DNA of 64,000 nucleotides from Octopus sinensis (Eukaryota), in the NCBI RefSeq assembly GCF_006345805.1, contig NC_043012.1, forward strand, positions 43,152,001 to 43,216,000, in the 5' to 3' direction. Below the pieces are notes generated by a model. The model was not told the DNA's origin and ran no database searches. It saw only the letters and a list, made by a program, of their open reading frames with translations. Each line of letters starts with the position of its first letter. Position 1 is the first letter of the stretch. Below, piece after piece: positions 61,222 to 64,000 of this stretch. Both the position numbers and the translations under genes were made by a program.

Positions 61222-61905
61222 TTCTTTTTTTTTTCTAGTTTCAGCTCAGAGCTGCGGCCATGCTGATGCACCGCCGTTTTGTGCTACACTGTTATTACGA
61301 CGAACCTCGTCTAATATGTGGCACTTGGTGAAGAATGGAGTTTGATACAGCTACTCTCATTTGCACCTCTTGCCGTGAGGTAGGTTCATCTGGGACTCTT
61401 GAAAGGAAGATGTCCAGCTTTGATTTAAAAACCGCTACATCTACTTTGTGCAAGTTCCTCAGAGTCTTTGGGAGAATATGAAAAAGCTGTGGGCCCTTGA
61501 AGCCCAGGCTGTTGCAGAAGCTGGTCCTGAAGCGTGATAGCATTGCTGGGATCTTTGGCACTATGCAGTGTCGTCCCGTTCTAGCATTGGTGTAGCTTAC
61601 AATGCCAGAATTTGGCACAATTCCTTCCAGGATCTTCCAGAAATATTACTGCATACCTCTCCCGTCTTCTCTCCAGGGAGTAGAGTCTTAGCTGTTTCAA
61701 CCTTTCCCAGTAGCTGAGCTGTTGCAAAGAGACGATCTTCTTTGTGAATCTCCTCTGGATTGCTTCAAGGTCCGCTGTTAATTTTACACTGGTGGGTGAC
61801 CATAGCTGTGAGCAGTAATCCAGGCGGCTGAGGACAAATGTCCGCCAGAGGACCATCATGGTTTCCTTATCTCTGGTTCTGAATGTTCTTAGGATACATG
61901 TTAGG
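61215..61905 (-). mobile_element. 5'-truncated CR1-group LINE (related to 61941-63165)
   Basis: LDYCSQLWSP, YSLERRRERY and FLSRVPDEP; the same 3' UTR motif ends in a poly-A tail. Confidence 0.9.
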
Positions 61906-61907
61906 AT

Positions 61908-61940
<33 letters not shown>

Positions 61941-61944
<4 letters not shown>

Positions 61945-63165
61945 AAACTGCGTAATCTTGGCATAGTTGGAAAACTGGGAGAATGGCTTCATGACTTTCT
62001 GAAGGATAGAAGTCAGGTGGTAGTAGCCAATGGGGCCACTTCCATTAACACGCAAATAGGTGTTCCGCAGGGCACTGTTTTGGGACCACTACTGTTCATA
62101 ATGGCCCTCTCAGACATGCCCTCAGCCACGCAGATAGCCACGATCACAAGTTATGCAGATGATACAAAAGTTTCACAGGCAATACAGAACCCTGAAGACA
62201 CTAAACACTTGCAATGTGAGCTGGACAAAATATACAAGTGGGCTGAAAAGAATAGCATGCAGTTCAATGCTGAAAAGTTTCAAGCTTTATGCTATCAGCA
62301 CGCAAAACTAAATGCAATACCCAATGAATACACTGGACCCGGAGGGATGCAATCCCAGAGGCACAATCAGTGCGTGACCTGGGTATTTACATGAGTGATG
62401 ACGCAACCTTTCATGTACATGTTGCTAAATTGGCAATGAAATGTAGACGACTGGCCGGATGGATTCTTAGAACCTTTAGAACAAGAGAACAAGAAACCAT
62501 GATGGTCCTCTGGAGGACACTTGTCCTAAGCCACTTTGACTATTGCTCTCAGCTATGGTCACCATCCAGTGTCAAGTTGATCACAGAACTTGAGGCGATC
62601 CAACGAAGCTACACGAAGAAGATAGCCTCTCTGCAGCATATAAGCTACTGGGAAAGACTCAAGAGATTAAAACTCTATTCCTTGGAGCGTAGGCGAGAAA
62701 GATATGCCATAATATACATCTGGAAGATCCTGGAAGGACTTGTCCCAAACTTTGGCATCGACTGTCACACAAATGCCAGAACCGGGCGCCACTGCGTAGT
62801 ACCAAGGACTCCAAATTTGCCATCAAGATGTAGGACAAGATATTGTGATAGCCTGGGCTTCAGAGGCCCACAGCTCTTCAATATCCCCCCCGAAGAACCT
62901 GAGGGACCTGCATGGGGTGGATGCGGATGTCTTTAAAGTAGGACTGGATCTCTTCCTGTCAGGTGTCCCGGATGAACCAACTTCACGGCAGGAGGTGTGG
63001 ATGAGGGCAGCTGCATCGAACTCTCTCATGCACCAAATGGCAGTTGCTAAAAAGCATTCGTGAAGTAAAATGATGTAGCAACACCAAATGGCGGTGCCCC
63101 AGCATGGCCACAGCTCGTGAGCTGAAACTAGATAAAATAAAAAAATAAAATAAAATAAAATAAAA
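61941..63165 (+). mobile_element. 5'-truncated CR1-group LINE
   Basis: GVPQGTVLGPLLF, YADDTK, DYCSQLWSP, LYSLERRRERY; 3' UTR followed by (TAAAA)n. Confidence 0.9.
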
Positions 63166-63183
63166 TATATATATGTATGTATG

Positions 63184-63228
<45 letters not shown>

Positions 63229-63529
63229 ATATATATATATTATATAATATATATATATATATATTATATATATATATATTATATATATATATATTATATA
63301 TATATATATAATATATATATATTGAAGTAGATAAATGAATTATCTTATTACGGATAATTCAAATGATAACCGATACCTGGGTAGCAAAAATCACAACAGA
63401 AAAAGCACGGTTGAGGTTACGACCATGGGGCCTAAAATCCGTGCCTTAGTGCGGAAATTTGAAGTTTTATATATTTAGTGTAGGAAGAAATGGAGCTGAA
63501 CGAAGATTTAACAAAATTCCTTTTTATTA

Positions 63530-63613
63530 TTTTCTACATATGTTTCAAAGGCTGCAAAGTCCCTAATTCGGATTGAATAAGGAGTCCACTTTGCAGCCTT
63601 CTCTTCAGGAAAA
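63530..63613 (-). ncRNA. Minimal type I hammerhead ribozyme (Penelope-type)
   Basis: Minus strand: TTTTC-CTGAAGA-GAAGGCTGCAAAGT[loop]ACTTTGCAGCCTTT-GAAA-CATATG-TA-GAAAA. Full core, 5-bp stem I, 14-bp stem II, palindromic stem III. Confidence 0.88.
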
Positions 63614-64000
63614 TCCAGGAACTTAATTCTCCAACAAAATGCACAGCAAGCTTTTCGACAAAACGCTCACGAGGAGCCCATGGAATAAATGGCACAAACT
63701 GTCTATCTATATGCGTTGACGCCAGGCTGGGTGAAAGCAGACGAGAAGGTCCGTTGAGATAATTCAAGGTCAAAATCCGGTTAGCAGAAGGGGAGTACAG
63801 GAAAATCAAAGAGTGTGAATGTATTCTGTATGACTGGTGTTAATATTTGAATTATTTTAAGAATGAGTGCTAGAGCGTTTGAGTGTGAGAAATTGCTTTC
63901 ATGTATGTGTGTGTGCGTCTATGTATGTGTGGCAGTGTGTTTCGAAGGCAGCAAGAGAGAGAGATATAGCAGGTATTAATGGTCAAGCAACAGAAAAGAC

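What the first reader, a model, noticed from the sequence alone, without database searches (positions are those of the whole stretch)
63530..63613. Textbook minimal hammerhead ribozyme in otherwise unannotated sequence, with an unusually long stem II
Seen: on the minus strand, the CUGAAGA and GAAA cores, a 5-bp stem I, a 14-bp stem II (extendable by ccttattc/gaattagg) and loop-less palindromic stem III CAUAUG before a GUA cleavage triplet. Known: Penelope-like elements and retrozymes carry such minimal type I hammerheads, which are thought to cleave as dimers through the palindromic stem III. Inference: 63320-64000 is a Penelope pLTR or retrozyme inserted next to (TA)n.
Basis: partly seen in the sequence, partly recalled or inferred. 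Interest (0 to 1): 0.72.

Follow-up and report, generated by a model that had tools for sequence, protein, structure and literature searches.

The report
Long-armed hammerhead in Hydra-type retrotransposon
This is a real hammerhead-ribozyme motif in the tail of a truncated copy of an abundant Penelope-like jumping gene; one arm is about twice as long as the published search pattern allows, it likely cuts the element's RNA best when two copies pair up (untested), and the element lands in TA repeats although it lacks the cysteine motif proposed to aim it there.

Summary
The motif is real: one descriptor hit in the window, no equally strict hit in 200 shuffles. It lies in the 3' pseudo-LTR of a 5'-truncated Penelope-like element whose RT + GIY-YIG-type frame starts just past the window end and carries the motifs of the Hydra group. 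It is not a retrozyme and not 'textbook minimal': the helix II arm is 55 nt (published descriptor at most 26; published Hydra motifs 12-26), and helix III is 2 bp plus a palindromic tetraloop. The 14-bp stem is private to this copy; the family has 12. The lineage has 7,874 motif hits against 0 controls; 7 of 12 proximal arm pairs covary. Copies end at two fixed sites about 150 nt apart, in TA runs, yet the CxCX5C linker is absent in 36 of 36 loci read. Cleavage is untested; dimer-assisted cutting is my best guess. The scan noted long-armed Hydra hammerheads before, in this and other genomes. New variant of a known kind.

The parts
63321..64000 (-). 3' UTR / pseudo-LTR and tail of a Hydra-type Penelope-like element; the element continues about 2.26 kb past the window end, where the RT+endonuclease frame (L031:991-3066, minus; 692 open codons, about 210 N-terminal residues missing) runs into (TA)n
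63529..63614 (-). type I hammerhead motif, from stem I to stem I
63602..63608 (-). core strand CUGAAGA (C3-A9)
   Evidence: invariant but for N7
63547..63601 (-). 55-nt helix II arm: proximal helix (63588-63601 with 63547-63560; 12 bp in the family, 14 here), internal loop, distal hairpin (63562-63587)
63535..63546 (-). GAA, palindrome ACAUAUGU (helix III) and A17; predicted cut between 63535 and 63534
63514..63624 (-). predicted extension of stem I beyond an internal loop (63617-63624 with 63514-63521)
   Evidence: constrained fold; 8 pairs, 85.6% of cells paired, 1 pair with double change; weaker in subfamily B
63489..63495 (-). CTCCATT, kept in nearly all subfamilies about 40 nt after the predicted cut
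   Evidence: alignment
63468..63480 (-). first fixed element end (+55 to +67 from the cut; AAATATATA), used by inverted arms and by most subfamily B copies
63402..63447 (-). predicted hairpin 1 of the ~150-nt tail
   Evidence: 6 sequences; little covariation
63336..63361 (-). predicted hairpin 2 of the tail, just before the second end
63321..63330 (-). second fixed element end (about +205 to +215), the one this copy uses
63165..63322 (.). (TA)n target array

Best explanation
The motif is a long-armed type I hammerhead in the terminal repeat of a Hydra-type Penelope-like retrotransposon, and it likely cuts the element's RNA after the GUA triplet, likely best when two copies pair through the 8-nt palindrome. 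Shown: full-length relatives are repeat-ORF-repeat units of about 3.6-3.7 kb with one hammerhead in each repeat, about 260 nt upstream of the start codon; insertions end at two fixed sites between the hammerhead and the start codon and run into TA arrays. Inferred: a transcript across the tandem holds two hammerheads that form an 8-bp shared helix III and are cut to give a unit-length (possibly circular) RNA; the element's protein nicks TA-rich DNA and starts reverse transcription inside that RNA at one of the two AU-rich sites, giving the repeat, the ~150-nt tail and the inverted arms. The long arm replaces the short loop 2; its fold is kept by paired changes, so it is likely structural, with a possible role as a protein-binding surface. 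This particular copy is 5'-truncated, holds one hammerhead and is likely an inactive insertion.
For: Element: L039, L155, L168 are repeat-ORF-repeat; 3637 nt between hammerheads in L168; motif match to the printed Hydra alignment. Selection on the fold: 11 of 26 pairs with double changes in 27 representatives, 7 of 12 in the proximal arm, central palindrome pair UA/UG/CG, score above 500 of 500 shuffles and all slid controls (similar on 14). Different palindromes and stems I in 26 sequence clusters. Genome-wide 26,059 long-arm pattern hits vs 471 reversed controls; 7,874 vs 0 for this lineage. Energies: monomer helix III +2.4, palindrome duplex -7.0, two copies co-fold at -68.0 vs 2 x -29.5 kcal/mol. 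Ends: 36 of 36, 37 of 37 and 33 of 35 motif copies run into a TA run, all but one at two sites. Precedents: low but real dimer cleavage of PLE hammerheads (PMC4209133), internal RT starts defining the tail (PMC11167929).
Against: No cleavage data. Unconstrained folding puts stem I pair probabilities at 0.05-0.06, so the active fold is not the predicted ground state. A 2-bp helix III with tetraloop is the form described for monomer-active invertebrate hammerheads (PMC7229834 passages). In the Anolis element the hammerhead cut only with protein, was not needed for insertion in vitro and left no RNA-seq ends (PMC11167929). This subfamily has G-U instead of the usual G-C at the base of helix II. 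The shuffle control ignores relatedness, and two of five measures were weaker (11/500 and 391/500). Another abundant Hydra-type family here showed no such motif downstream in 41 loci read. Pfam and PDB sequence searches gave no RT or GIY-YIG hit, so the domain calls rest on motifs.
Confidence: 0.7

Rival explanations
1. Same element, but the hammerhead cuts efficiently as a monomer: helix III is 2 bp plus a tetraloop, and the internal loop of the extended stem I docks on an irregularity of the long helix II in place of the usual loop-loop contact.
For: Stem I can extend past an internal loop after 6 bp; many relatives have a mismatch at pair 4-7 of helix II; a 2-bp helix III with tetraloop is called typical of invertebrate hammerheads (PMC7229834).
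Against: The loop stays self-complementary through three variants and across unrelated clusters, which a monomer would not need; this subfamily's helix II has no irregularity in 12 bp; monomer helix III costs +2.4 kcal/mol.
Confidence: 0.2
2. The arm is a sequence-specific docking site for the element's RT/endonuclease, and the hammerhead is a protein-assisted ribozyme that cuts only in the assembled particle.
For: Among four close subfamily representatives the distal 21 nt are 86-90% identical against 47-92% for the proximal strands and 31-65% for upstream UTR (A1/B1 Fisher p=0.003, B1/C 0.011); eight arm positions beyond the first three pairs are invariant in 27 sequences; the Anolis hammerhead needs its protein (PMC11167929).
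Against: In the wider set of 20 the distal part (0.70) is no better kept than the proximal helix (0.61-0.69) or the downstream flank (0.70) and is below the core (0.91); A1/C was not significant (p=0.33); other Hydra-type families here have unrelated arms or a 10-nt arm. Conserved bases could also be a DNA promoter element.
Confidence: 0.25
3. The hammerhead is a non-cutting relic or passenger that is simply copied with the terminal repeat.
For: No cleavage evidence; weak stem I; hammerhead mutants did not block insertion in vitro in Anolis (PMC11167929); one Hydra-type family thrives without a detected motif.
Against: Core identity 0.91 against 0.40-0.43 upstream, with compensatory changes in helices I, II and III across subfamilies.
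Confidence: 0.07
4. Non-coding retrozyme.
For: Tandem 400-450-nt hammerhead repeats of other families exist in this genome.
Against: This copy is continuous with a 692-codon RT/endonuclease frame shared by other copies at 90-97% identity; no tandem short units here.
Confidence: 0.02

Closest known systems
Hydra-clade Penelope-like elements (Craig et al. 2021, PMC8557442; read: section 11, passages, supplement parts 1, 2, 58 and a search of the supplement), including Hydra-1_Obim
   Same: C-terminal GIY-YIG-type domain without CCHH, DKT motif, CxxC and CxH, YRDD core, (TA)n insertion, type I hammerhead in the 3' end, inverted 5' arms.
   Different: Helix II arm 55 nt against 12-26 nt in the Hydra rows of File S2; RWL instead of RWK; CxCX5C linker absent, replaced by about 150 N/S-rich residues and a conserved non-cysteine segment; ORF 902-903 aa, unit about 3.6-3.7 kb (paper: generally under 3 kb); by eye a different family from Hydra-1_Obim.
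Minimal hammerheads of metazoan PLEs (Cervera and de la Pena 2014, PMC4209133; read: text parts 1-2 of 4, supplement passages)
   Same: Type I, in pLTRs, palindromic helix III region, presumed dimers.
   Different: Descriptor allows stem II 3-7 bp, loop 3-10 nt and GAAA-NN-UH; this motif has a 55-nt arm and six bases between GAAA and UH, and no extra base between A9 and G10.1.
Poseidon element PAc of Anolis (Frangieh et al. 2024, PMC11167929; read: text parts 1-2 of 4)
   Same: Two fixed ends downstream of the hammerhead that define a tail; AT-rich targets.
   Different: There the tail is described as 30-40 nt and the starts lie inside the ORF; here the ends are about 150 nt apart and lie upstream of the start codon.
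PLE-X1 hammerheads of spike mosses (PMC8557442 File S2)
   Same: A PLE hammerhead with a long helix II arm (9-bp stem, 35-nt loop in PLE-X1_sMoe), so long arms are not unprecedented in PLEs.
   Different: Plant, endonuclease-less elements flagged there as deviating; not Hydra; no covariation analysis given in the table.

Membership tests
Type I hammerhead ribozyme | CUGANGA and GAAA cores, NUH triplet, three helices open at stem I | tested here: met
Type I hammerhead ribozyme | helices supported by covariation | tested here: met
   (related sequences; controls are not probabilities)
Type I hammerhead ribozyme | self-cleavage at the predicted site | not testable with these tools
   only contigs of runs guessed to be RNA were available
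Type I hammerhead ribozyme | match to an Rfam hammerhead model | tested here: not met
Minimal PLE hammerhead (Cervera 2014) | stem II 3-7 bp with loop 3-10 nt | tested here: not met
   55-nt arm; descriptor
Minimal PLE hammerhead (Cervera 2014) | GAAA-NN-UH, no helix III loop | tested here: not met
   GAAA-CATATG-TA
Penelope-like element | single ORF with RT and C-terminal GIY-YIG endonuclease | tested here: met
   motifs against the printed alignment; Pfam/PDB gave no hit and the fold prediction did not finish
Penelope-like element | pLTR tandems, inverted 5' arms, optional tail | tested here: met
Hydra clade | DKT motif; no CCHH; CxxC and CxH in the endonuclease | tested here: met
Hydra clade | RWK motif | tested here: inconclusive
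   RWL here; RWR and RWM occur in close relatives
Hydra clade | CxCX5C linker before the endonuclease | tested here: not met
   0 of 44 readable rows (36 distinct loci); present in 88 of 98 complete relatives. So: Hydra-like, a deviant lineage rather than a member by every listed feature
Hydra clade | insertion into (TA)n | tested here: met
   (queries for subfamilies A and B favoured such ends)
Hydra clade | placement in the Hydra branch of an RT tree | not tested
   named reference proteins could be read but not brought into a tree
Non-LTR retrozyme | non-coding tandem units of 150-450 nt | tested here: not met

The most novel reading that the evidence does not exclude
A very successful Hydra-type lineage has lost the zinc-binding linker thought to aim these elements at TA repeats and has shifted that job to its RNA: reverse transcription starts at two AU-rich sites that pair with the nicked (TA)n target, and the long hammerhead arm with its neighbouring conserved motifs is the docking platform that positions the protein and gates a protein-assisted cut.
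Probability: 0.15. Interest if true: 0.68.

Novelty: new variant of a known kind. Interest (0 to 1): 0.38.

Why it matters
Hammerheads in Penelope-like repeats are known, so the class is not new. Two points add something. First, long-arm forms outnumber short-arm forms about two to one in this genome by matched patterns (26,059 vs 11,551 hits) and lie outside the published descriptor, so ribozyme counts in such genomes are likely too low. Second, this lineage keeps TA-repeat insertion without the cysteine linker that Craig et al. associate with targeting, and intact-looking full-length copies exist (L155), which makes both the targeting question and the open question of what PLE hammerheads do directly testable with the published in vitro assay.

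Tried and rejected
Rfam: no hit. A first loose pattern with a 10-40 nt gap missed the motif and matched at chance level. Pseudoknot between the arm's apical loop AAUCC and GGAUU upstream: rejected, the loop changes in subfamilies B and C without partner changes. tRNA T-loop/B-box reading of the apical loop: rejected by eye, subfamily C lacks the purines. 'Distal arm as conserved as the core': seen in 4 representatives, not upheld in 20. 'Arm length fixed at 53-58 nt' (20 of 20): not used as evidence, because 14 of the 20 were picked by a pattern that fixes the length; one copy has a 14-nt deletion in the arm. Inverted copy of the flanking LINE tail beyond the 5' end as a target duplication: rejected, that tail has many 98-99% copies genome-wide. 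Pfam and PDB sequence searches: no informative hit. Structure prediction had not finished; no result. Expression: no RNA holder listed on record; contigs of four runs guessed to be RNA cover the stretch but cannot show ends or strand. A long degenerate pattern was one base short and counted mostly one subfamily; replaced. Lunse et al. (PMC5785218) was not held; I saw only its title and a review's summary (PMC6765202 passages), so its range of stem II lengths is unchecked; file 1 of the Cervera supplement was not searchable. Literature searches for a long-arm form: 'hammerhead ribozyme'+'long stem II' 0 papers, 'hammerhead'+'extended helix II' 1 paper, which meant helix III, 'hammerhead ribozyme'+'octopus' 5 papers, 4 listed, only Craig et al. 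relevant, 'Hydra'+'Penelope-like'+'cephalopod'.

Full report
Observation. The motif is at the stated place on the minus strand (coordinates). A descriptor asking for both cores, stem I, stem II and a self-complementary helix III finds it once in the window; 200 dinucleotide shuffles give 3 loose and 0 strict hits. Three details differ: stem I has 6 bp and can extend; the 14-bp stem is due to a change private to this copy, the family has 12; and ACAUAUGU can form 2 bp with a tetraloop, so it is not loop-less. Rfam does not detect it.

What it belongs to. The 531 bases around the motif have 2,379 candidate sites in G000; the 40 scored match at 91-100%. The neighbouring stretch (L031) shows, on the same strand upstream, 692 open codons that run into a TA array. 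The protein has FDI..FYPSI, PMGS.D, YRDD, a YQC...YIG endonuclease-type region, CxxC and CxH. Full-length relatives have 902-903 codons. They read like the Hydra-clade proteins printed in Craig et al. 2021 (PMC8557442) and align with 120 unnamed relatives listed (17 of them aligned). Pfam and PDB searches gave no informative hit, so the domain names rest on motifs, and no tree was built. L039, L155 and L168 have a hammerhead on both sides of the frame (3,637 nt apart in L168), with the start codon 256-265 nt after the predicted cut; several copies carry an inverted second arm. The window's copy lacks about 210 N-terminal residues and the upstream repeat. The host is probably an octopus; that rests on earlier scan notes and my recall of its SINEs, not on a test here.

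How common the motif is. A core pattern with a 40-66 nt arm has 26,059 hits against 471 for the reversed pattern; with a 10-39 nt arm 11,551 against 584. A pattern for this lineage has 7,874 against 0. In the loci then held, 130 distinct motif sequences fell into 26 clusters, 19 of them with arms of 44-61 nt, with different palindromes and different stems I. One other long-arm family was traced to a Hydra-type frame with a normal cysteine linker; one Hydra-type copy has a 10-nt arm. The others were not traced.

Is the long arm real structure? In 14 representatives 8 of 36 named pairs show double changes, 5 of 12 in the proximal arm; in 27 representatives 11 of 26, 7 of 12 in the proximal arm, with the central palindrome pair read as UA, UG or CG. 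Paired fraction, changed cells and score exceed all 500 shuffles and the slid controls; the count of pairs (11/500) and of pair types (391/500) are weaker, and the sequences are related. The distal hairpin is kept in sequence, not by covariation. It looked as conserved as the core in four representatives but not in twenty (0.70 against 0.91), so a sequence-specific role is possible, not shown.

Comparison with published motifs. The minimal descriptor of Cervera and de la Pena allows stem II 3-7 bp, loop 3-10 nt and GAAA-NN-UH; this motif fails both. Hydra rows of Craig's File S2 have arms of 12-26 nt; two spike-moss PLE-X rows there have long arms and are flagged as deviating. My four searches for a described long-arm form found none; Lunse et al. 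could not be read.

Insertion anatomy. In three subfamilies the sequence after the predicted cut runs into a TA run in 36 of 36, 37 of 37 and 33 of 35 motif copies, at +50-69 or +200-229 in all but one; the two exceptions inspected continue toward the next frame. A TA run starts within a random 20-nt interval of the window 3% of the time. Caveats: the queries for subfamilies A and B favoured these ends, and a few loci overlap. Both ends are AU-rich, and two hairpins are predicted in the tail. This mirrors the two internal reverse-transcription starts shown for the Anolis element (PMC11167929), with a longer tail.

The missing linker. Craig et al. list a CxCX5C linker as a Hydra feature and link it to (TA)n targeting. 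It is present in 88 of 98 complete relatives (at least one of the ten has a longer-spaced version) and absent in 44 of 44 readable rows, 36 distinct loci, of this lineage, where about 150 N/S-rich residues and a conserved cysteine-free segment stand in its place. So the linker is not required for TA insertion in this lineage; what replaces it is not shown.

Mechanism. Shown: structure of the element, position and conservation of the motif, fixed ends. Inferred: transcription across a tandem gives an RNA with two hammerheads; monomer helix III costs +2.4 kcal/mol while the palindrome duplex gives -7.0, and two copies co-fold through it; cutting at both sites would release a unit RNA, linear or circular, on which the protein starts reverse transcription downstream of the cut. 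Against: stem I is poorly populated in unconstrained folding; 2-bp helix III motifs can act as monomers (PMC7229834 passages); in Anolis the cut needed protein and was dispensable for insertion in vitro. The RNA data at hand are contigs of runs only guessed to be RNA and say nothing on ends.

Earlier notes of the scan. Seven unreviewed notes report long-armed Hydra hammerheads in this and other genomes, split between 'docking site' and 'tolerated bulk'. I reached the identification before reading them; they are not independent support. None of the listed notes mentions the missing linker.

Verdict. Real, well-supported hammerhead motif in a Hydra-like Penelope element; a new variant of a known kind. 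Identification about 0.95, dimer-assisted cleavage about 0.6, interest 0.38.

Noticed in passing
L031:4039-4219 (minus), about 3.8 kb upstream of the window's hammerhead: A solo end of sister subfamily B with its own hammerhead (palindrome ACACGUGU) on the same strand; 1,490 candidate sites genome-wide.
   Followed up: yes
L170-L199, L260-L270: An abundant Hydra-type family with a normal cysteine linker shows no type I palindromic hammerhead within about 1.5 kb (30 loci) or about 5.4 kb (11 loci) downstream of the endonuclease; its 3' region runs into mixed microsatellites. Craig et al. call hammerheads universal in Hydra. A permuted or variant core was not searched for.
   Followed up: partly
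window 61230-63145: Two LINE fragments (RT with YADD; CR1/L2-like by recall) lie back to back around a TA array; the right one belongs to a young family with many 98-99% copies, and another copy of its tail lies beyond the Penelope element's 5' end.
   Followed up: partly
L065, L093/L094 and G000:C1:4297863-4299124, C1:4621805-4622757: Tandem 400-445 nt hammerhead repeats with 44-45 nt arms: retrozyme-like families.
   Followed up: no
L005-L007: A different hammerhead (6-nt palindrome ACGCGU, 54-nt arm) is joined directly to the endonuclease end of this family, suggesting a template switch between families.
   Followed up: no
L039:2270-8039: A gypsy-type element (by recall of its motifs) is inserted in the frame of a full-length tandem copy.
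   Followed up: no
L036:3734-6076 (minus): A 781-codon Penelope-type frame of another clade (GLKF, DKG and a CCHH-type endonuclease by eye) next to a family copy.
   Followed up: no
window 63665-63682 (minus): CATGGGCTC followed by a small hairpin about 75 nt upstream of the core is kept in subfamilies A, B and C but not in more distant ones.
   Followed up: partly
L031:6753-8309 (minus): Host exons beyond the element: an SRCR-like domain (by recall) and a Thr/Ser-rich stalk with a membrane-like segment.
   Followed up: no
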